Virus genome (UHGV): UHGV-0376136
Length of the DNA: 17,585 nt
Direction: 5' to 3' (one strand)
Origin: a virus
Under the pieces are notes generated by a model. It had not been told where the DNA came from. It was given only the letters and a program-made list of their open reading frames with translations, and made no database searches. The first letter of the stretch is position 1; each line of letters opens with the position of its first letter. This document shows, one piece after another, positions 1-7,802 of the stretch. A program made the position numbers and the translations under genes.

Positions 1-2041
1 CTGCAGGTTCGGTATATTCCTCAATTACCTCAGTCGGCACCTGCTCGGTATACTCCTCCTCGACATCTTCAAGCTCTGCCTCATAAACAAAAAGCTGTTT
101 GCCTGCCTCGTCAAGACGCGGAGAACCATCCTCGTTAAAGACAAATACCTGGATAAGCTTAGGTGTCTGATACTCTTCCTGAACTACCCTCTTGATGCGT
201 TCTCCATCTTCTGTTTCTTCATCCACAAGTATTTCGCGCGTGGCCGTCATCATCACAGGTCGCTTTACTGTGCGGGTTTTTGTCACTTCCATCATGCGGC
301 TGACAGTGCGGGTTTTTGTTACTCGCTCCCCCTCATTGGTCCGCACTGAAATATATTGGTCTTCCCATTCGTCGTAACAGAGGAGCCCGAGACCGAAGCC
401 ATCAATGCCATGCGATGCAAACACCTCCTCCACGCGCTGCGCAATAAGGCCGAAGTGCCAGCGCGCACCGTCTTCGCCTTTTTGCGCAACCGCATCATCA
501 AACTTAAACCGCGTGCGCCAGCTGACTTCCTCCCAGGCATCGAGGACCACATCAGGGATCGCTTCCTTAATTGGCTTGTGATTGTCATCGGAGGTGTTAA
601 TCGCACCAGTACCAAAATAGGCAGTACGTCCTCGATATGAGGCTGAGCCATAATCGAACTGGTTATCGGCGCTCGGGCGCTGGGTGCAGTTATAGGTGAC
701 AATCCCGGCTTTTATCTCATAGTTACCTTGCCCATCTGTTGCACTACCACCGCTAACCACTACGCGAGCGTCAAAAGCAGAGCCAGCCCCACTGGACCGG
801 TATATTGTTTGCACCGTGCTTGCAATAGTTGGAGACCCTACTGACGTAAACGCCCCTGAGTCTTCTAATTGCAAAGATTTGGTGCTGAGCTTAACCAGGT
901 TGTGGAAAATGATGTGGTTCACTTCAACCAACGAACCGAGGGAAAGGACGCGGTCTATTTTTGGGCAGTCGACGGAAAGTACACGGCTGTCTTCACCAAA
1001 TACTGCCCCGCCATTCTGCGGGCCAAAGGCAATACCGGTTCGCCAGGTGCAGGCGCTACCCATGTTACCGACGCTAATTGCAGCATCAATTACGTCGCCG
1101 CGTTTTGCCTTGGTGCCGCCGATTTGCAGGCCGGTTCTGATGTTTGAGCTGGCACCCTCCGGAATGCCGACGTTGAATTCAGCCCCCGTGACATTGAGCG
1201 TATACATAGCCCCTGGGGTAAGCGTTCCGTAGAAATTACCACCAAAATAAGCCCCCTTAGCGCCAGCAAGCGATACTCCACCGTCTCCAGTTGAGGAGGT
1301 CGCAAAGCCGGTGACGCCTACATAGTTTCTGTCAGTATTTGTTGCATCAGTCTGACCAAGCTGCTCAAGGATGAATTCAGCAGCGTGGCGGCCGCCTTTA
1401 CATCCCGCCCCCCCGAATTTGTGATTCAAGAGGAATCCGTCAACCTTTGTTCCGGGAACCATGTCATCAACAGCATTGAAACGGTCATCGTCAATCCTGA
1501 TATAATTGAACTTGGCCGTGTTGACAGTGAGCCCGCTCCCGGTAATCGGCTCCGCAAGATGAACCCCGATCCCTCGGGTAATATCATCTCCGAATTTCTC
1601 TCCTGGCCGCCCCTGCAGAATTGAAAACTTATCCAGTCCTCGGCTCATTACCCCAGGACCTACTAATGCAGCGCCGCCCAGCGCAGCTAATTCAGCCCTT
1701 AACTGGTCTGGAGCATATTTCAGAACATCAGCAAAATAGAATTGTTGGGTGCCGTATGAATCGCGAATCTCCATGCTGTAATTTTGCACGGTGACGAATT
1801 TAACAATCTGACCGTTATAAACGGGGAATCCGCCAGCATTTATTCGCAATGGCTGAGGTACTGGAACATGGGTCCCATCTTCATTCTCAATATAAACCTG
1901 AATTTGGTTAGCAGGATTCGTAGGATCTGTATCCACTAGCCCAATAAAGATTTCTCCATTGGCAACAGCCTTAAATGCACGAGCCATAGTAAATGGCTGG
2001 CTAGGCATGGCGATAAGAACATTGGCTGCAATGTCTGTCAT
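1..2041 (-). CDS. Tailspike / tail fibre, 3'-partial (C-terminus beyond window start). P22 gp9-like N-terminal head-binding domain, a different Gly-rich receptor-binding region, and a C-terminal S74-type intramolecular chaperone domain.
   Basis: ATG at 2041..2039 (minus) after GGAG RBS; translation begins [56 protein letters not shown], matching my recollection of the P22 tailspike N-terminus. Frame checked at 2041, 1207 and 667 (all the same phase). No stop seen in my translation down to position 1, which explains its absence from the ORF track; track ORFs 319..702 and 1090..1305 are off-frame. C-terminal part has ...[34 protein letters not shown]...[14 protein letters not shown]..., resembling the endosialidase/T5 chaperone motif. 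Confidence 0.8.
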
Positions 2042-2098
2042 TTAATTTGCTCCAGATACAAGGAATCGCCGCAGCGTAGCTACGGTGAATTTTGGGCA

Positions 2099-2122
2099 TA
2101 AAAAAACCCAGCCGAAGCTGGG
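2099..2122 (-). terminator. Rho-independent terminator between ant and the tailspike gene
   Basis: Plus strand 2107..2122 cccagc-cgaa-gctggg perfect 6-bp stem with tetraloop, preceded on plus by an A6 run (a U-run on the minus-strand transcript); sits 20 nt after the ant stop. Confidence 0.65.
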
Positions 2123-2141
2123 TCGTTGCGTTGGTTATCTG

Positions 2142-3020
2142 TCAGTAGTTATGTACTGAAGGAGGTAATTCTTTATTCTTAAGTCTTATCCATGCGGAAA
2201 GATTCGTTGGTCCGTCTGGCTCATTAATATCAACATCTCGTGTGTGGTTTATTAAAACGTCTCTCGCCATTCCGATAACATACGAGAATTCATGACCGTA
2301 GTCGTAGCATCTGCCGGAATAGTTCGATTGAATTTGTTTTAGCGCCGGATACAGTTCGCGGAATAATGCCTGTGAACGGTTAGCATAATCCCATAGCCAT
2401 ACAAGGCTGTTTGCTTCTTTTGCAGAAAGCTCGTTGGTTTTCTTCTCTTGTTTGCCAATGAACTCACCTTCAAGCACTACCCTGTGGATGTACTCTACGG
2501 CCAGCGGGATTTGTTCAATTGAAAGCTCATCAATGCTGTCAATACCAAAACGCTGATGAACCATATTGTATGCATCGTCATAGCGAAGTCCTTTCTTTCC
2601 TACCAGCATGTTTACTGCATCGCGTAGCGGTGTTCTTTCCTCAACAGTGGTTTTCTTTCCTTTTACATACTCGCCATGTTTGCGAATTGAAGGCAGAACT
2701 TCTGCTGTTACCCACTTGCGGAATTTGTGCGGGACTGAACCTTTATTGACTGCATCGCGGCAGCGCAGAACCAATGTATACATACCTGATTCGCTCACAA
2801 TGCTTAGATTCTGCTCACCACCAAGGGTGTAACTTAAAGTTACTCCCTTTTCATCGTCATCAAGTGCAGTAAGCGCCTTGCGTGAGTTAGTCAAAGCTAA
2901 AGCATCACAAACATCTTTAGCTACAAACCACGGCTCGCCGCACTTGTTAATGACGCGAATTTCACTGTCGCCAAATTTGAAGATGGTGAAATCGTTTTGT
3001 GCCTTTGCTATACTTTTCAT
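2142..3020 (-). CDS. ant: Antirepressor Ant (Bro-N/AntA-type N-terminal domain), 292 aa
   Basis: Track ORF 2142..3086 trimmed to ATG at 3020 ([41 protein letters not shown]...[13 protein letters not shown]...[17 protein letters not shown]), colinear with my recollection of P22 Ant; the track start at 3086 is a GTG. Position after arc and before tailspike matches P22 immI. Confidence 0.85.
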
Positions 3021-3095
3021 GTCAATATTTCCTAAGCCGATTTGTTGATACCGAAGCCCTGACTGTTCCCGCAGTTGGGGCTTCACTGTTTTGAT
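3021..3095 (+). ncRNA. sar: Candidate sar-like antisense RNA covering the ant ribosome-binding site
   Basis: Plus-strand -10 TATACT (3009..3014) with weak -35 GTGAAA (2986..2991, 17-bp spacer) predicts a start near 3021, antisense to the ant start region. A plus-strand terminator-like hairpin follows. Arrangement analogous to P22 sar as I recall it; ends approximate. Confidence 0.3.
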
Positions 3096-3100
3096 TTCTT
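3053..3100 (+). terminator. Plus-strand terminator-like hairpin in the arc-ant spacer (proposed sar terminator)
   Basis: GAAGCCC (3053..3059) pairs with GGGCTTC (3078..3084); inner stem ACTG/CAGT; followed by T-rich actgttttgatttcttt. The minus-strand side is not T-rich, so it appears unidirectional. Confidence 0.4.
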
Positions 3101-3252
3101 TGCCGCATCAAGCATCACTTCTGAAAACGTGCGCTTGCCACTGAATACTCTTTCTCTTCTCAATTTTTCGTTCGTGCCAAATGATTCGCCATGAACAAAA
3201 TTTGGTCTTAAAATGGTAATCGCAATCTCTTTGACTACTGCATCCAAGCGAA

Positions 3253-3393
3253 TCACACCGTTATCCCCTCTCTCTTCAGGCTGTCCATCACCCGTTTAAT
3301 TACTTCTGCGCTAAATGAGCGACACTCTTCCTTTGCTTTCTCTTCAAGGATTTTTTCTAACTTCTCTGGCATACGCAGTGTTTTTACCTTCAT
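3253..3393 (-). CDS. arc: Arc-like ribbon-helix-helix repressor, 46 aa
   Basis: Not in ORF track (<60 aa). Minus-strand ATG at 3393 after GGAGGA RBS; translation MKVKTLRMPEKLEKILEEKAKEECRSFSAEVIKRVMDSLKREGITV, stop TGA at 3253..3255. Resembles P22 Arc as I recall it (...LRWPREVLDLVRKVAEENGRSVNSEIYQRVMESFKKEG...). Confidence 0.8.
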   Translation of the reverse strand: MKVKTLRMPEKLEKILEEKAKEECRSFSAEVIKRVMDSLKREGITV

Positions 3394-3405
3394 TGCATCC
3401 TCCGT

Positions 3406-3470
3406 TGTATGTGGTACGCATACATAGTATTTAGGTACGCATTGATAGTCAATAGATACCTACATATCCT
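3406..3470. promoter_or_regulatory. Divergent Pant/Pmnt promoter region with two palindromic operator candidates
   Basis: Minus-strand promoter: -35 TTGACT (plus 3447..3452), 17-bp spacer, -10 TACTAT (plus 3424..3429). Plus-strand promoter: -35 TTGATA (3442..3447), -10 TATCCT (3465..3470). Palindrome A: TGTATG-N7-CATACA (3406..3424). Palindrome B: TAGGTA-cgc-ATTGA-TAG-TCAAT-aga-TACCTA (3432..3462). Direct repeat GGTACGCAT at 3413..3421 and 3434..3442. Confidence 0.55.
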
Positions 3471-3498
3471 GTGGTAAAAAATTATTCAGGATGCGCCG

Positions 3499-3750
3499 AT
3501 GTCTGATCGTAAGTACAAAAACCCTCAAGTGAATCTGAGGCTTCCTGTAGAGATAAAGGAACGTCTTATTGAACTGGCTGAGGCTAATTCTCGTTCATTA
3601 AATGCTGAGATGGTCGCGGCACTTGAAGCATGGACCGAAAAAAATAAACACATTCAAGCACTAGACCTTGCAACTATAGCATCACGATTGATAGATCTTG
3701 AACACGATGTTGAGACGCTAAAGACCATGTATGCTAAGGATGAAAAATAA
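3499..3750 (+). CDS. mnt: Mnt-like ribbon-helix-helix repressor, 83 aa
   Basis: ATG 3499 with AGGA RBS 7 nt upstream; N-terminus NPQVNLRLPVEIKERLIELAEANSRSLNAEMVAALEAW fits the RHH beta-strand plus two helices; same length as P22 Mnt; divergent from arc across the operator region. Confidence 0.7.
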   Translation: MSDRKYKNPQVNLRLPVEIKERLIELAEANSRSLNAEMVAALEAWTEKNKHIQALDLATIASRLIDLEHDVETLKTMYAKDEK

Positions 3751-4286
3751 TGCTGCACACAATTCACTTCTTATGCCCTGTTAACACTGCCACTGTTGGG
3801 CAACTTCAGAACCACTGTCTCACCGCATTATCTCAAGGCGCAACTGAATTAAATATCCATATATCAAGTCAGGGAGGGGAAACTGCCGCTGGCTTTACTG
3901 CGTATAACTTTCTTAAGTCACTCCCTGTTACCGTTAGAACTCACAACATAAGCAATGTTGAATCCATAGCTAATATCGTTTTCCTGGCTGGCTCAGAACG
4001 TTTCGCAAACCCATTATCAAGATTCCTGTTACATCCTCTATTATGGGGCTTTGCCACCCCAGCCGCCGACCATGCCAGATTGAGAGAGTACGGGAAATGC
4101 CTCGATAACGATCTTGATCGCTTCGTTGAGACGTTCAATATCGACATCGGAACCCATATTAGGTGGGCATCCCTGATAGCAGACTCGACCATTTTGGATG
4201 CTAACAAGGCTCTTGAGCATGGCATAATTAATTCCATAAAAACTGCAAGGCTGGTATCCAATCAGGCAAACTGGTGGGTTGTTTGA
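3750..4286 (+). CDS. ClpP-like (S14-type, ClpP-fold) serine protease homologue, N-terminally truncated relative to ClpP, 178 aa
   Basis: Start ATG overlaps the mnt stop (TAATG at 3748..3752). By-eye alignment to E. coli ClpP: ISSQGGETAAGFTAY vs INSPGGVITAGMSIY; NVESIANIVFLAG vs QAASMGAFLLTAG (Ser aligned); PLSRFLLHP vs PNSRVMIHQP (His aligned); KALEHGIINSI vs EAVEYGLVDSI. Confidence 0.75.
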   Translation: MLHTIHFLCPVNTATVGQLQNHCLTALSQGATELNIHISSQGGETAAGFTAYNFLKSLPVTVRTHNISNVESIANIVFLAGSERFANPLSRFLLHPLLWGFATPAADHARLREYGKCLDNDLDRFVETFNIDIGTHIRWASLIADSTILDANKALEHGIINSIKTARLVSNQANWWVV

Positions 4287-4311
4287 TGGGTAAATCATGA
4301 TTACTCCTTAT

Positions 4312-4336
4312 AAAAAACCCACCTGAAGGTGGGTTT
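4312..4336. terminator. Bidirectional rho-independent terminator between the convergent ClpP-like and 322-aa genes
   Basis: cccacc-tgaa-ggtggg (4318..4333) flanked by A6 (4312..4317) and ttt (4334..4336); strong T-run in the minus direction, weaker in the plus direction. Confidence 0.65.
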
Positions 4337-4341
4337 CATAA

Positions 4342-5310
4342 TTAGATTTCTGGTTTCATTCTTCCGAAAACCTTTTCTATTCCTTTTTCGTATTCTTCTC
4401 TTGTCTCACTCATCGCTGCGACACCAAGAAGCTTACCGATATGCTGACGCAAAGCCTTGACACCAATTTCAGAAAGGAACAGATGCAACTTATCAGATTG
4501 TTTTCCGTTCTCGTCTCGGCTGGCTCGAATCTGTTCAAGGATTTTACCTTTACTCTTTGCTAGCGGGGTATATATCTGCATGTTGGTTAGCTGCCCAAAA
4601 CGAATAGGCCGTCCTTTCTCTGGCCTATTCAGGCCGTACAGTCGATACCACTCCTCGTATAGCTCATCTGGAAATTCCTTTTCATATTGACGAGCCTCTT
4701 CACGAACAAACGCTTTGAACTCGTCAATGACAGCCTGAACTTCTGGACGATAACCAGCAAGCGCATACGCAACCCCCTTAATTCCCGCCTTAGCGGAGGC
4801 ATTAATAAGTCTCTGTGCTGCGGCGGCTGCCTTTAACCGTGATTGTGGTAGATCGTCATTATCTTTGGCTTCTATTAGTGCCCTACCAATATCAACAATT
4901 GCTGTAATGTCATAACCTAACGCTTGATGAACGGTTTTAGACTTCGAAGTAAGTTGAAATTTATAGGGATTTTCCATTTTTCGCTGCAATTCTAGATCTC
5001 GGTATTTGCTCATATACTGAGCGCCAAGCAGTTGATCTAAATCCCTGGCATGTTCACCAATCCCTAGCAACTGAGATAATCCAGTTTTCGTAACAACGAC
5101 AGTTTTCGACTCGTCATCCAGTACATAACATTCAGCATCAATGCCAAAATCATCTAAAAAGTTACCACGATGAGTTGCCCTGAGAATCTTACTTTTCCAT
5201 CTTGCAGCAGCTGCTTTCTTTGCTATTTCAGAACGCTGCTCTTTAGTCAGCGACTTTGCGCGAGCGATCCCGCCCTTAGCTTTCCCTTCGCCACTTTTCT
5301 TTTCAGTCAT
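4342..5310 (-). CDS. Hypothetical protein, 322 aa, with basic Lys/Ala-rich N-terminal putative DNA-binding segment (possibly P63C-family; unverified)
   Basis: Track ORF 4342..5373 starts at a TTG with no RBS; ATG at 5310 is preceded by AAAGGTG. N-terminus MTEKKSGEGKAKGGIARAKSLTKEQRSEIAKKAAAARWKSKILRATHRGNF... Strong upstream promoter and operator repeats. Confidence 0.7.
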   Translation of the reverse strand: MTEKKSGEGKAKGGIARAKSLTKEQRSEIAKKAAAARWKSKILRATHRGNFLDDFGIDAECYVLDDESKTVVVTKTGLSQLLGIGEHARDLDQLLGAQYMSKYRDLELQRKMENPYKFQLTSKSKTVHQALGYDITAIVDIGRALIEAKDNDDLPQSRLKAAAAAQRLINASAKAGIKGVAYALAGYRPEVQAVIDEFKAFVREEARQYEKEFPDELYEEWYRLYGLNRPEKGRPIRFGQLTNMQIYTPLAKSKGKILEQIRASRDENGKQSDKLHLFLSEIGVKALRQHIGKLLGVAAMSETREEYEKGIEKVFGRMKPEI

Positions 5311-5402
5311 AATGCAAGCACCTTTGTTGTGATGTATGCTTGCATTATATGCACTGTACACACATACAAGCAAGCATAAAACTAAAACAAAATGCTTGCA
5401 TT
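5311..5402. promoter_or_regulatory. Promoter for the 322-aa gene embedded in four copies of an ATGCTTGC-core operator motif (two inverted pairs)
   Basis: Minus-strand -10 TATAAT (plus 5344..5349), 18-bp spacer, -35 TTGCTT (plus 5368..5373). Motif copies: 5311..5320 (aatgcaagca), 5337..5346 (tgcttgcatt), 5370..5377 (gcaagcat), 5392..5402 (atgcttgcatt). Confidence 0.6.
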
Positions 5403-5466
5403 ACAACCGCGCTGCTCCAACTACACATTATCATCTGGTATCCTGCTCAAAACTAAGGAGGTTGGT

Positions 5467-5787
5467 GTGTATATATCGCTATCTACCATTTTTTTCATCT
5501 GCTTAGCTATTTGGCTTTTAAGAATATGGCAGGATTGCTCTGTCAGCCATGCTGCTGCGGTGAGAAATAAAAACGCCCTCATAAAAGAAGCTGAAAACGT
5601 TGTCTTATCAATGGATCACCTTTCATGGACCGAGATGACTACAGGGCAACAAGAGGTTTATGAGTGTGCGATTGAGCGGTTAAGGCTGCTTAAGTCGTAC
5701 AAAAAGAACCACGCACCCGACTCATTCCCATTCCTGAAAGAATGGCCGAGATGGTATGACCCGAAAAAAGCAACCATCAACCGCTAA
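5467..5787 (+). CDS. Small single-pass membrane protein, 106 aa from GTG (131 aa if the ATG at 5392 is used)
   Basis: AAGGAGG (5455..5461) 5 nt upstream of GTG 5467; product begins VYISLSTIFFICLAIWLLRIW (hydrophobic helix) followed by a charged soluble domain. Ends 8 nt from the convergent gp16 stop. Confidence 0.5.
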   Translation: MYISLSTIFFICLAIWLLRIWQDCSVSHAAAVRNKNALIKEAENVVLSMDHLSWTEMTTGQQEVYECAIERLRLLKSYKKNHAPDSFPFLKEWPRWYDPKKATINR

Positions 5788-5795
5788 CCAACTTT

Positions 5796-7802
5796 TTACT
5801 GCTGGGCTTTCTCACTTGAAGCCTGAATTAGAGGTGTAAGAGTTTCAGATACCCGCCTGATCGCTCTATCATAAGCAGTACTTCCTTTTGGTGTGTTTGC
5901 TAACTTTAGTAATGCGTTCCTCATCGCGCGTGACTCATAGCCCCTGCCAGCCATACCGATACCAGCTCCAACTGCCGCAACTTTTGCAAACATTGGATTT
6001 GTAACAGATGCAAGAGCTGTTATCAGCGCTGCTGGACCAGCTACCATTTGCCCTGTTAGTGGGCTTGCGGCAGCAGTAGCTGCCTGTCTAGTGGAATCAA
6101 GATATTTCATTATCCCATCAAGCTGTTTCCCATGCTCTCCTCTGAAGAACGTCTCAGCCTGCTTCCGATTCCTTTTCATTTCATTAATAAACTTCTCAAC
6201 GCTAAGCTTTCCTGAATCGCTTGTCGCCTTATCCATTGCACGCTGAACAAGTGCTGCTCTAGCATTTTGACGCCCACTATCATCAAGCAATCGATAAAGT
6301 TGCGCCCTTTCCGCTGGGCTTTGGCTGAATACTAGTTTAGTGACATCTTCTGGCGTTGTTTTACCACTCTGAATAGCTTTTTGGACACGTGTATTGCTCA
6401 TCATGTCGTTGAACTTTGCCCAAGAACGATCAACACGCAACATGTTTTGCGCTTCCTTCGCACCTAGTTTTGCGCCAACCGCTTTTTTCATGTCTGTTGT
6501 GTATGCGTTATAAACAGACTGCGCAGCTTTCTCCAGCGTATCTCTATCGACCTCGTCAGGTGCTGCCATAAAGCGCTTACGTAAGTTTGTACGGTTTTCT
6601 CTAGCTAATTGCAGGTTATTTGGACCGCTGGTGATGTCATTTCTAAACTGTTGAAGGACAGAAACAGCTGAGCGGTCTTGCGATACTCCTGGGCGAGTTA
6701 ACTTGGAAATCTGCTCATCAATTGCTTTCACTGTTCCAGTGATGTCAACAGGAGTATCCCCCATCAAACTGATGATCCTGTCGTACCGCTTGCCAGCAGC
6801 CTGAATAAATTGCTGCTGACCACGAGTAGCTGATTGGTAAAGTTGTGCGTCAGATATTCCACCAACATTATCGCTAAATGTTCTAACTAAATCTTCCCTG
6901 GCCTTTTGCTGTGCATTTCTTATCCCACCTGTTCCGGCTATTGGGATTCGCTCAGCCATAGCTCGTGCTTGCTTACCAATATTTGTTCCCGGTTCCACAA
7001 GATCTGTTGTCATCAGTGGCAAGTTGTTCTGCTTGGCAAAGTCAATCTGAGCTTGTTTTTCAGGAGCAATCTTACCCATAGCAGAACGAGACACTGCGCT
7101 TGCGGTGTTTTCTACACCCTTCAGTACCCCACCAAGACCAGCAGAAATTGCAGTTTGAACTGGATTAACATTCTCACCGCCAGCGATCTTTGTGGCACCC
7201 TGTAAAGCTAAATCAGTAGCGCCTGATTTTAGTGTTGCACCTACAACAGACGCAGCTCTACCTGCTGGAGTGAATGCAAGAGCATTTGCCAAGAATGACG
7301 TTATATCCTGCGGTGACAAACCAGGCTTGTTAAGTGCATATTCCCCTGAAGGAAGGGTGACTATGGAATTTCCCTTCTCATCCTTCCGGATTTTCCCGCC
7401 AATACTTTGCAGTATTTTCTCCTGTGAAGCGTCGGAACCAAATAGCTGCCCCAATCCAGCACGCAGCGCATCAGTGCTTAAGCTATTAAGCTCTGGAGCA
7501 GACCCAACATTTTGCAGTCTCTCCATTTCTGGTGTCATTCGGCTTTCACCGGTAACGGCATCGCGCATTGCAGCACCTAAAACAGCCCCTTGCTCAGCAG
7601 ATCGATCTAGTCCTTCCTTCTGCTGAGTGGCAAGCTGTGCATATCCTGATGCAAGTGAGTTGTCTGCTGGCGATTGCTGAACACCTTGTTGTGTTGGTGC
7701 TGACTGACCAGCAAAATACTCATCAATGGCGGTGCCAATATCTTCGGTGCTCGTACCATCAGGAAAGGTAAATGTCTTACCGTTTGCAGTTACTTTCATC
7801 AT
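5796..7802 (-). CDS. 16: Ejection (E) protein, P22 gp16 analogue, 668 aa
   Basis: Last gene of the late operon before the accessory region; 4-nt start overlap with the upstream gene; long Gly/Ala/Gln-rich protein; assigned by synteny with P22 order 7-20-16. Confidence 0.8.

What the first reader, a model, noticed from the sequence alone, without database searches (positions are those of the whole stretch)
3750..5787. Three-gene accessory island replaces P22 sieA between gp16 and mnt
In P22, as I recall, this interval holds sieA and a small ORF. Here it holds a ClpP-like protease, the operator-controlled 322-aa protein and a small membrane protein, with their own promoters, strong RBSs and a shared bidirectional terminator. 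The slot is a recognised moron/exclusion position in P22-like phages, so the trio may be an undescribed exclusion or defence module.
Basis: inference. Interest (0 to 1): 0.75.

Follow-up and report, generated by a model that had tools for sequence, protein, structure and literature searches.

The report
Three unlinked accessory genes, not a module
The three genes between the DNA-injection gene and mnt of this P22-like E. coli prophage are real, but they are three independently shuffled accessory cassettes in a known hyper-variable slot rather than one defence module; the middle one, a self-contained gene with a conserved four-box control element, is the only part worth following up.

Summary
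The genes exist almost as described, in the "ant moron" of a P22-like E. coli prophage lying in reverse orientation. Corrections follow.

- **ClpP-like gene (3750-4286):** it has no promoter of its own. Its ATG overlaps the mnt stop codon (TAATG).
- **Membrane gene:** it starts at GTG 5467, giving 106 aa rather than 131. This is the position homologous to the P22 sieA start.
- **Terminator (4312-4336):** it serves only the ClpP-like and P63C genes.

The trio is not a unit.
- None of 75 P63C loci and none of 25 loci of the small gene carry the other.
- About 10 of 80 ClpP loci carry P63C.
- No phage record and none of 5,426 complete E. coli genomes holds the trio.

Each gene has its own partner.
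- **ClpP-like gene:** it travels glued to the 3' end of mnt, and is even found inside a lambda-like tail operon. It belongs to the truncated, weakly active PpClpP1 type.
- **Small gene:** it travels with one gp16 allele.
- **P63C gene:** it carries four ATGCWWGCAT boxes into other accessory slots, including Q-holin and downstream of cI, where BstA sits in BTP1.

No function is known for any of the three, and PADLOC gives no hits. A defence or exclusion role remains plausible for single genes only.

The parts
3499..3750 (+). mnt (Arc/Mnt-type ribbon-helix-helix repressor, 83 aa). Its last ~40 nt travel with the ClpP-like gene.
   Evidence: Pfam Arc 3e-10. 98% identical at the DNA level to CUS-3 mnt. 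The conserved 3' junction ...cttgagacgctaaagaccatgtatgSTaaggatgaWaaataATG is found behind at least 5 mnt allele types.
3750..4286 (+). N-terminally truncated ClpP1-like serine peptidase (178 aa), translationally coupled to mnt (TAATG). It sits in the place of P22 orf59a.
   Evidence: Pfam CLP_protease 46.7 bits against a cut-off of 20.2, matching profile positions 37-180 only. PDB 9uxt (PpClpP1) E 4.6e-35. S72 and H95 are invariant in the family, while the third triad position is not conserved. The gene always abuts mnt in P22-like loci.
4312..4336 (.). Bidirectional intrinsic terminator between the convergent ClpP-like and P63C genes. It is the right-hand boundary of the ClpP cassette.
   Evidence: Hairpin of -13.8 kcal/mol (+) and -16.6 kcal/mol (-), z about -3. 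95.6% identical to a feature annotated 'terminator' in phage Emek. Sequences diverge immediately after the hairpin across loci.
4342..5310 (-). P63C-domain protein gene (322 aa). Predicted layout: basic N-terminal helices (residues 11-39), an alpha/beta domain (43-150) and a helical P63C domain (199-286).
   Evidence: Pfam P63C 52.7 bits against a cut-off of 26.1; phrog_2384 1.7e-104. 1,682 homologues. AlphaFold2 model with mean pLDDT 72. No convincing fold match.
5344..5373 (-). Putative sigma-70 promoter of the P63C gene: -35 TTGCTT (5373-5368), 18-nt spacer, -10 TATAAT (5349-5344).
   Evidence: Read directly from the sequence. The -35 lies in box 5368-5377 and the -10 overlaps box 5336-5345. 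The site falls below the threshold of the consensus scan.
5312..5401 (.). Four near-palindromic boxes ATGCWWGCAT at 5312-5321, 5336-5345, 5368-5377 and 5392-5401. These are positions -11, -35, -67 and -91 from the P63C ATG.
   Evidence: Same boxes and spacing in nearly all P63C loci at 54-100% protein identity and in the 31%-identical ST104 orf23. The boxes are invariant while the spacers diverge.
5436..5466 (+). Conserved sieA-type leader with Shine-Dalgarno AAGGAGG (5455-5461). It acts as a recombination boundary shared by the alternative genes of the slot.
   Evidence: 97% identical to the 35 bp upstream of P22 sieA, start codon included. The same leader precedes SieA, a 109-aa protein, a 161-aa lipoprotein and this gene. 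Megablast blocks break at 5449-5469.
5467..5787 (+). Small single-pass membrane protein (106 aa, GTG start) that exactly replaces the sieA ORF.
   Evidence: phrog_10450 match begins at this residue. One hydrophobic segment at residues 1-22. AlphaFold2 mean pLDDT 87, with a long N-terminal helix (5-48) and a second helix (59-77). PGAP calls it as 106 aa. Only 14 homologue clusters.
5796..7802 (-). gp16-type DNA-transfer (ejection) protein, 668-aa allele. It is the constant neighbour of the small gene.
   Evidence: phrog_770 1.3e-177. All ~25 IMG/VR loci with gp16 at 85% identity or more carry the small gene, and none with 78% or less do. The two genes co-diverge.

Best explanation
The interval is a mosaic stretch of the 'ant moron' of a P22-like E. 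coli prophage. It is made of three cassettes that assort independently and have different partners.

**A. mnt-ClpP-terminator**
- Shown: the gene encodes a truncated ClpP1-like peptidase, its ATG overlaps the mnt stop codon, and the cassette ends at the hairpin.
- Inferred: it is read from Pmnt and is therefore made in the lysogen together with the maintenance repressor.
- Inferred from the solved homologue PpClpP1: it forms an open-pored, unfoldase-independent 14-mer, or mixes with host ClpP and alters host proteolysis.

**B. The P63C gene**
- Shown: a self-contained cassette with a readable promoter, four conserved ATGCWWGCAT boxes that overlap the -35, the -10/start site and the ribosome-binding region, and a terminator.
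- Inferred: the boxes restrict expression. The most likely route is autoregulation by the protein's conserved basic N-terminus binding the DNA. The alternative is a hairpin that blocks translation on read-through late transcripts.
- Inferred: the protein is a DNA-binding accessory factor of the lysogen.

**C. The 106-aa membrane protein**
- Shown: it replaces the sieA ORF precisely behind the shared sieA leader, and it is inherited with one gp16 allele.
- Inferred: it is an envelope-level exclusion factor analogous to SieA.

The three do not form a functional unit.
For: **Mosaicism**
- Separate megablast blocks with breakpoints at 3710, 4310-4333 and 5449-5469. No record in 50,697 phage records or 5,426 E. 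coli genomes has the trio.
- Co-occurrence counts are given. The P63C-small-gene junction is found in 1 genome.

**Cassette A**
- The TAATG overlap and the conserved junction behind five or more mnt alleles, with a conserved hairpin as the right edge.
- The ant-arc-mnt-ClpP cassette sits between tail genes L and K of the lambda-like PhiR12_1.
- Homologues of 52-74% identity occur singly, each followed by a hairpin, beside lysis or tail genes.
- Match to 9uxt, E 4.6e-35. Properties of PpClpP1 are taken from PMC12900304.
- S72 and H95 are invariant.

**Cassette B**
- Boxes and spacing are conserved at 54-100% protein identity and in two contexts.
- They are also conserved in ST104 orf23 (31% identity), which lies downstream of cI.
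- In the alignment the boxes are invariant and the spacers diverged.
- The 933W homologue has different palindromes.

**Cassette C**
- Leader and start-codon homology to sieA.
- The alternative slot genes are all envelope proteins behind the same leader.
- Two-way linkage with the gp16 allele.
- SieA acts on gp16 and gp20 (PMC10883804).
Against: - No function has been tested for any of the three genes.
- PADLOC finds nothing.
- hhalign against Ant gives a probability of 1.7%.
- Binding of the boxes by the P63C protein is inferred only from co-inheritance. The same boxes also predict a very stable RNA structure.
- The linkage of the small gene to gp16 could be pure adjacency: the two are convergent, 8 bp apart, with no boundary sequence between them.
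- The small gene has no SieA motif and only one transmembrane segment.
- Co-occurrence counts come from pattern-seeded locus sets, not from an exhaustive census.
- No promoter for the small gene could be read convincingly.
Confidence: 0.8

Rival explanations
1. The three genes are one co-selected exclusion or defence module.
For: - They lie side by side in a slot that holds sieA in P22.
- All three are plausibly expressed in the lysogen.
- ClpP and P63C are neighbours in about 10 IMG/VR loci and one E. coli genome.
Against: - The trio is absent from every collection searched.
- 0 of 75 P63C loci and 0 of 25 small-gene loci show co-occurrence of those two genes.
- ClpP pairs with three different P63C alleles and far more often with none.
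- Each gene is found alone in unrelated phage types.
- Block boundaries fall between the genes.
Confidence: 0.04
2. P63C and the gene of the sieA slot form a divergent regulator-effector pair. In this reading the P63C protein binds the shared boxes and controls whichever membrane gene lies behind the common leader.
For: - The P63C block (4310-5469) includes the leader and Shine-Dalgarno sequence of the slot gene.
- The same block precedes SieA, a 109-aa protein, a 161-aa lipoprotein and this gene.
- Box 5392-5401 lies about 30-45 nt upstream of a possible -10 (TATCAT, 5429-5434) on the plus strand.
Against: - The small gene occurs without P63C in 25 of 25 IMG/VR loci.
- SieA works alone with its own promoter (PMC10883804).
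- P63C cassettes in the Q-holin slot and downstream of cI have no divergent partner.
- No -35 element can be read for the small gene.
Confidence: 0.15
3. The boxes act as RNA rather than as operators. On read-through transcripts the inverted boxes fold and bury the ribosome-binding site and AUG, so the P63C protein is made only from its own promoter, whose start site lies inside the third box. Such read-through could come from the late operon here, from PR' in the Q-holin context, or from PRM downstream of cI.
For: - Minus strand 5296-5356 folds at -19.9 kcal/mol (z -4.0).
- Minus strand 5296-5410 folds at -48.1 kcal/mol (z -6.0), with the ribosome-binding site and AUG enclosed.
- The AA/TT centres alternate strictly, so neighbouring boxes are complementary.
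- In all three contexts inspected (this window, Q-holin, downstream of cI) the gene points the same way as the upstream genes.
- The minimal conserved unit is the pair that flanks the ribosome-binding site.
Against: - Each box is itself a palindrome, as expected for a dimeric DNA binder.
- The variants seen are not compensatory (GTAC opposite GCAC, outer A-C, central AT in box 1).
- The boxes coincide with the -35 and -10 elements.
- The 933W homologue has different palindromes at the same place.
- The two mechanisms are not mutually exclusive.
Confidence: 0.3
4. The ClpP-like gene is a prohead (head-maturation) protease, as PHROGs and one GenBank record label it.
For: - Best PHROG is phrog_94 'head maturation protease', 5e-21.
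- It is annotated that way in phage phiv205-1.
Against: - It lies outside the morphogenesis cluster and on the opposite strand, fused to the lysogeny gene mnt.
- The NCBIfam head-maturation model scores 49.7 against a cut-off of 120.
- Most P22-like relatives inspected lack the gene.
- By my own recollection, not checked here, P22-type capsids mature without a protease.
- The nearest solved relative is a cellular ClpP paralogue.
Confidence: 0.03

Closest known systems
The 'ant moron' / immI-sieA region of P22-like phages (Villafane et al. 2008, PMC2629481; P22 map NC_002371)
   Same: - Same position between gene 16 and the tailspike gene.
- mnt, arc, ant and sar are present.
- Variable cargo between gp16 and mnt.
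- The sieA leader and an mnt-operon terminator are present, although the window's hairpin is not demonstrably homologous to P22's annotated terminator.
   Different: - orf59a is replaced by a ClpP1-like gene.
- sieA is replaced by an unrelated 106-aa protein.
- A P63C cassette is inserted between them.
- An extra 57-aa ORF lies between arc and ant.
PpClpP1 of Pseudomonas plecoglossicida (PDB 9uxt; PMC12900304)
   Same: - 40% identity over the full length (E 4.6e-35).
- Same N-terminal truncation.
- Catalytic Ser and His conserved.
- No canonical Asp at the third triad position.
   Different: - The third position is Ser146 (with Asp145 beside it) rather than Pro.
- The gene is carried by a phage and coupled to mnt.
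- Oligomeric state, activity and pairing with host ClpP are not known for this protein.
BstA/aba of prophage BTP1 (Owen et al. 2021, PMC8585504)
   Same: - Works-like resemblance only: a single gene of about 310-320 aa expressed from the prophage, with its own terminator. Its own promoter is inferred.
- An N-terminal alpha/beta domain is followed by a second domain.
- A short DNA element spans the upstream region and the start of the gene.
- The homologue ST104 orf23 occupies the same slot downstream of cI.
   Different: - Not homologous: the PADLOC BstA model gives no hit, and hhalign gives a probability of 5.7%.
- The element is four palindromic boxes, not terminal CCCGCC direct repeats.
- No defence phenotype is known.
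SieA superinfection exclusion protein (Leavitt et al. 2024, PMC10883804)
   Same: - Same slot, orientation, leader and start-codon position.
- An inner-membrane-type protein.
- It sits next to the ejection-protein gene that SieA targets.
   Different: - No sequence similarity.
- One transmembrane segment rather than several.
- Lacks the FxRYPxEAxxFNK motif.
- 106 aa against 164 aa.

Membership tests
ClpP / peptidase S14 | CLP_protease domain above the curated threshold | tested here: met
   46.7 bits against a cut-off of 20.2, but profile positions 37-180 only.
ClpP / peptidase S14 | Catalytic Ser and His | tested here: met
   S72 and H95 align with Ser73 and His96 of PpClpP1 and are invariant in 25 family members.
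ClpP / peptidase S14 | Catalytic Asp as the third triad member | tested here: not met
   The aligned position is S146 and the column is variable (D/N/Q/K/A... followed by S/A/P). The Mycobacterium tuberculosis ClpP1 Asp falls in a gap.
ClpP / peptidase S14 | N-terminal axial loops/helix that gate the pore and dock ClpX/ClpA | tested here: not met
   The protein begins at profile position ~37. The NCBIfam ClpP equivalog scores 22 against a cut-off of 308.6.
ClpP-related head-maturation protease | NCBIfam NF045542 above its cut-off, and a position in the head gene cluster | tested here: not met
   49.7 bits against a cut-off of 120. The gene follows mnt on the strand opposite the head genes.
PpClpP1-type truncated ClpP paralogues | Full-length similarity, truncated N-terminus and a Ser-His-X triad | tested here: met
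   E 4.6e-35 over residues 3-175; 40% identity.
PpClpP1-type truncated ClpP paralogues | 14-mer with a dilated pore; hetero-14-mer with canonical ClpP | not testable with these tools
   Known only for PpClpP1 (PMC12900304).
P63C-domain proteins (PF10546) | P63C domain above the gathering score | tested here: met
   52.7 bits against a cut-off of 26.1 at residues 199-286. All 32 aligned relatives match.
BstA abortive-infection proteins | Match to the BstA profile / KilA-N-like N-terminal domain | tested here: not met
   The PADLOC BstA model hits BTP1 BstA at 1.9e-124 but none of three P63C proteins. hhalign gives a probability of 5.7% over 22 columns.
BstA abortive-infection proteins | Cognate cis DNA element (aba) that gives self-immunity; abortive-infection phenotype | not testable with these tools
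   Only the presence of a conserved DNA element at the gene start is shown.
SieA | Sequence similarity, several transmembrane segments and the FxRYPxEAxxFNK motif | tested here: not met
   No BLASTP hit to P22 or E. coli SieA. One hydrophobic segment. Motif absent.
SieA | Position, orientation and leader of the sieA locus | tested here: met
   35-bp leader 97% identical; GTG 5467 aligns with the sieA start.
Moron (independently expressed insert in a phage operon) | Present or absent among related phages, with its own promoter and terminator | tested here: inconclusive
   - Presence/absence is shown for all three genes.
- A terminator is shown for ClpP and P63C.
- A promoter is readable only for P63C and only by eye.
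- No transcript data are available.
Known anti-phage defence systems (PADLOC-DB v2) | Match of any of the three proteins to a defence-protein model | tested here: not met
   No family at E of 1 or less for any of them.

The most novel reading that the evidence does not exclude
The P63C cassette is an undescribed single-gene prophage defence or regulatory system that works like BstA/aba. In this reading a lysogen-expressed DNA-binding protein carries a cognate four-box DNA element at its own start, which serves for autoregulation and/or self-immunity.

The cassette hops between the classical accessory slots of temperate phages: the ant moron, Q-holin, the nin region, and the slot downstream of cI. 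The box element is more conserved than the protein: the same boxes and spacing are kept at 31% protein identity.
Probability: 0.2. Interest if true: 0.7.

Novelty: new member of a known kind. Interest (0 to 1): 0.38.

Why it matters
As a three-gene module it does not matter, because it is one more shuffled version of a slot already known to be in rapid flux. Three leads come out of the analysis.

1. A large family (about 1,700 hits) of roughly 320-aa P63C proteins has no known role. Each gene carries a footprint-like, highly conserved control element, and the genes sit where prophages keep lysogen-expressed defence genes.
2. A truncated ClpP paralogue is hard-wired to the mnt maintenance repressor. 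This suggests that prophages tamper with host proteolysis or with the antirepressor circuit.
3. The sieA slot holds several alternative small envelope proteins, each tied to a particular allele of the ejection protein gp16. This makes the question of who excludes whom among P22-like phages testable.

Tried and rejected
- **Defence models:** the PADLOC scan of the three proteins found nothing.
- **PDB sequence search for the P63C protein:** nothing.
- **Fold searches of the P63C AlphaFold2 model (pLDDT 72):**
  - Foldseek against viral models gave only E above 1e-3, with recurring but weak Ant-N/Bro-N labels.
  - afdb50 was not available.
- **hhalign of the P63C family:** probability 1.7% against an Ant/Bro-N alignment and 5.7% against BstA. 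I therefore do not file it as Bro-N, KilA-N or BstA.
- **Pfam scan of 32 family members at E of 1 or less:** only P63C.
- **Fold search of the small protein (pLDDT 87):** no hit with E of 0.001 or less.
- **P22's gene-free stretch between PsieA and the mnt terminator as a P63C remnant:** no similarity.
- **Literature:** searches for P63C plus phage gave no functional study.
- **Consensus scans:** the promoter/terminator scan missed both the P63C promoter and the terminator because of its own rules. I read both by eye and by folding.
- **Head-maturation protease label:** rejected (see rival explanations).
- **85-aa antisense ORF inside the ClpP gene:** considered and set aside as probably chance.
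Full report
**1. What is there**

The window is the late region of a P22-like (Lederbergvirus) E. coli prophage in reverse orientation.
- Portal to gp16 lie on the minus strand. The structural genes are 95-97% identical to coliphages CurroJimenez_Bas106, APC_JM3.2 and IME10.
- gp16 is 5796-7802(-), mnt 3499-3750(+), arc 3253-3393(-) and ant about 2142-3020(-).
- sar RNA is 3022-3087(+), Rfam RF00262 at 64 bits.
- The tailspike gene runs off the left end.

P22 itself has 16, sieA, PsieA, a terminator, orf59a, mnt, arc, ant and 9. The interval named in the finding holds three ORFs:
- a 178-aa ClpP-like ORF at 3750-4286(+) (Pfam CLP_protease, 4e-12);
- a 322-aa P63C-domain ORF at 4342-5310(-) (7e-14; phrog_2384, 1.7e-104);
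- a small ORF ending at 5787(+) (phrog_10450, 2e-51).

**2. Corrections to the observation**

*The ClpP-like gene.* Its ATG overlaps the mnt stop codon (TAATG). In every P22-like locus it abuts mnt, whatever the mnt allele, and the last ~40 nt of mnt are part of the conserved junction. It is therefore a passenger of the mnt operon at the orf59a position, not a gene with its own promoter. In some loci ClpP and orf59a are both present.

*The 131-aa ORF is over-called.*
- The PHROG profile starts at residue 26, which is GTG 5467, five bases behind AAGGAGG.
- The 35 bp at 5436-5470 are 97% identical to the leader and start codon of P22 sieA.
- PGAP calls the same protein as 106 aa.
- The upstream ATG at 5392 belongs to one of the boxes.

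*The hairpin at 4312-4336* folds well on both strands (-13.8 and -16.6 kcal/mol, z about -3). It is 95.6% identical to a feature annotated as a terminator in phage Emek. It serves the convergent ClpP and P63C genes only. The small gene converges on gp16 with an 8-bp gap.

*Promoters.* A promoter can be read for P63C: TTGCTT-18-TATAAT, with the -10 at 5344-5349 on the minus strand. It scores below the threshold of the scan tool. No convincing -35 is seen for the small gene.

**3. Do the three travel together? No.**

- Megablast of 3400-5900 splits into four blocks: the mnt body (as in CUS-3), 3710-4333 (ClpP plus hairpin), 4310-5469 (P63C plus boxes plus leader), and 5449-5900 (small gene plus the end of gp16).
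- None of 50,697 phage records and none of 5,426 complete E. coli genomes covers 80% or more of the query. The trio alone would be about 84%.
- In IMG/VR:
  - of 75 P63C loci, none has the small gene and 8-9 have ClpP;
  - of 80 ClpP loci, about 10 have P63C, at 100, 77 or 54% identity;
  - of 25 small-gene loci, none has either.
- In 78 gp16-anchored loci P63C occurs in 5, ClpP in 5 and both in 1. About 0.3 would be expected if they were independent (my arithmetic).
- The P63C-small-gene junction exists in one genome of 5,426 (P393-F10). There it involves another P63C allele and no ClpP.

This is the rapid flux already described for the 'ant moron', with ten types in sixteen genomes (PMC2629481).

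**4. The ClpP-like cassette**

*Partner.* Its real partner is mnt/immI. In the lambda-like siphovirus PhiR12_1 the whole ant-arc-mnt-ClpP block sits between tail genes L and K. More distant homologues (52-74% identity) occur singly, on the strand opposite their neighbours, each followed by its own hairpin. They lie between the terminase and lysis genes or among tail genes. That is typical moron architecture.

*Nearest characterised relative.* This is PpClpP1 (PDB 9uxt, E 4.6e-35, 40% identity). According to PMC12900304, PpClpP1:
- lacks the N-terminal helix and has a Ser-His-Pro triad;
- forms a 14-mer with a 43-Å pore and is a weak peptidase;
- does not bind ClpX;
- forms a more active hetero-14-mer with the canonical ClpP.

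*The window protein.* It keeps S72 and H95, which are invariant in 25 relatives. The third triad position (S146, with D145 beside it) is not conserved. A DH pair (107-108) and a C-terminal NWWV motif are conserved. It fails the curated thresholds both for canonical ClpP and for head-maturation proteases.

*Inference.* It is a lysogen-expressed, unfoldase-independent or host-ClpP-modifying peptidase. Its substrate is unknown.

**5. The P63C cassette**

*The family.* It is large (1,682 hits) and conserved over its full length. The name comes from phage Mx8 p63.

*The boxes.* Upstream of the gene are four near-palindromic boxes ATGCWWGCAT, at -91, -67, -35 and -11 from the ATG (window 5392-5401, 5368-5377, 5336-5345, 5312-5321).
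- They overlap the -35, the -10/start site, and the space between the Shine-Dalgarno sequence and the ATG.
- The same boxes and spacing accompany P63C genes at 54-100% protein identity.
- That includes about 30 loci where the gene sits between the Q antiterminator and the holin of lambdoid prophages.

*ST104 orf23.* It is only 31% identical (E 3e-33) and lies directly downstream of the cI repressor. It has the same four boxes with the same spacing, while the spacers between them have diverged. That is a phylogenetic footprint.

*933W.* The homologue in the nin region next to roi has different palindromes (ACGTGCA) in the same place.

*The N-terminus.* The basic N-terminus (GKAKGGxARAxxLTxEQRSEIAKKAAAARW) is the best-conserved protein segment. 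It is nearly identical even in the 54% alleles.

*Inference.* The cassette is self-contained and self-regulated. Most likely the protein binds the boxes. A rival is an RNA hairpin that forms only on read-through transcripts and buries the ribosome-binding site and AUG (-48 kcal/mol, z -6). The variants seen are not compensatory, which mildly favours DNA binding.

*Structure.* The AlphaFold2 model has mean pLDDT 72, with an alpha/beta domain at 43-150 and helical domains on either side of it. It matches nothing convincingly. hhalign against Ant and against BstA is negative.

**6. The small gene**

- The sieA slot holds alternative genes behind one leader (...ggtatcctgctcaaaactaaggaggttggtGTG):
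  - SieA, with several transmembrane segments;
  - this 106-aa protein, with one N-terminal transmembrane segment;
  - a 109-aa protein with a transmembrane segment and a coiled coil;
  - a 161-aa lipoprotein, which is preceded by a variant of the leader and starts with ATG.
- All ~25 loci whose gp16 is 85% or more identical to the window's carry the small gene, and none with 78% or less do.
- The two genes co-diverge: gp16 at 87% identity goes with the small protein at 66%, and gp16 at 37% with the small protein at 41%.
- Other slot genes are likewise tied to gp16 types.
- SieA blocks DNA delivery through gp16 and gp20 (PMC10883804). The small protein has neither the SieA motif nor its topology.
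- An exclusion role is therefore analogy plus position. Simple adjacency could explain the linkage.

**7. Comparison with what is known, and novelty**

- The region as a whole is a new combination within a described, hyper-variable moron.
- The ClpP-like gene is a phage-borne member of the recently characterised PpClpP1 type.
- The small gene is a new occupant of the sieA slot.
- The P63C cassette resembles BstA/aba in how it is built and where it sits: a single gene, a two-part DNA-binding-type protein, a DNA element over its own start, and for one homologue the slot downstream of cI (PMC8585504). It is not a BstA homologue: the PADLOC BstA model hits BTP1 BstA at 1.9e-124 but not the P63C proteins.
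- None of the three proteins matches a known defence model.

**8. Verdict**

- Single-gene exclusion or defence roles remain open.
- Interest is modest for the finding as stated. The P63C cassette and the mnt-ClpP coupling are the leads worth an experiment.

Noticed in passing
window 3022-3087 (+) and 2142-3086 (-): sar antisense RNA (Rfam RF00262, 64 bits) is present. The ant ORF listed from GTG 3086 is over-extended: P22 homology (83% over P22 15027-15107) puts the ant start near ATG 3020.
   Followed up: partly
window 3083-3256 (-): An extra 57-aa ORF (phrog_17642, function unknown) lies between arc and ant and overlaps the arc stop codon. It is absent from P22 but present at 96-98% identity in many P22-like E. 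coli loci.
   Followed up: no
window 4041-4298 (-): An 85-aa antisense ORF lies inside the 3' end of the ClpP-like gene, with a GGAG-N5-ATG start between the ClpP stop codon and the terminator. A Shine-Dalgarno sequence plus ATG on the antisense strand recurs just after the stop of 52-74% homologues in unrelated contexts. The long ORF is present in only 4 of 6 loci inspected and is codon-aligned with ClpP, so it is probably chance.
   Followed up: partly
L266 (PhiR12_1, PV340549.1) 2025-4037: A complete ant-arc-mnt-ClpP cassette is inserted between tail genes L and K of a lambda-like siphovirus. The P22 immI module thus moves as a block into a different phage type, together with its ClpP passenger.
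   Followed up: partly
L268 (ST104, NC_005841.1) 2361-2456: ST104 orf23 is a 31%-identical homologue of the P63C protein. It sits directly downstream of cI, the slot BstA occupies in BTP1, and keeps the same four boxes and spacing. Its annotated start (2417) is an ATG inside a box; the real start is about 2454.
   Followed up: yes
window 5392; L006 4583: The ATG of the box ATGCTTGCAT creates spurious N-terminal extensions of the slot gene (131 aa here, 134 aa in phage vB_EcoP-611R6), which get annotated.
   Followed up: yes
L188-L265 (gp16-anchored loci): Each kind of sieA-slot gene (SieA type A, a SieA-like protein 28% identical to P22 SieA, the 161-aa lipoprotein, the 106-aa protein) goes with a particular gp16 allele class. 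This suggests either allele-specific pairing or plain linkage of the two convergent genes.
   Followed up: partly
window 3405-3460: The divergent arc/mnt control region carries repeats (GTGGTACGCATAC, TAGGTACGCATTG, and a palindrome TGTATG..CATACA) unlike the P22 Arc and Mnt operators. This implies a different operator specificity for this mnt/arc pair.
   Followed up: no
alignment A2 (ClpP-like family): Besides the catalytic Ser and His, the family has an invariant Asp-His pair (D107-H108), invariant E113 and D121, and a C-terminal NWWV motif. Any of the acidic residues could stand in for the missing catalytic Asp.
   Followed up: no
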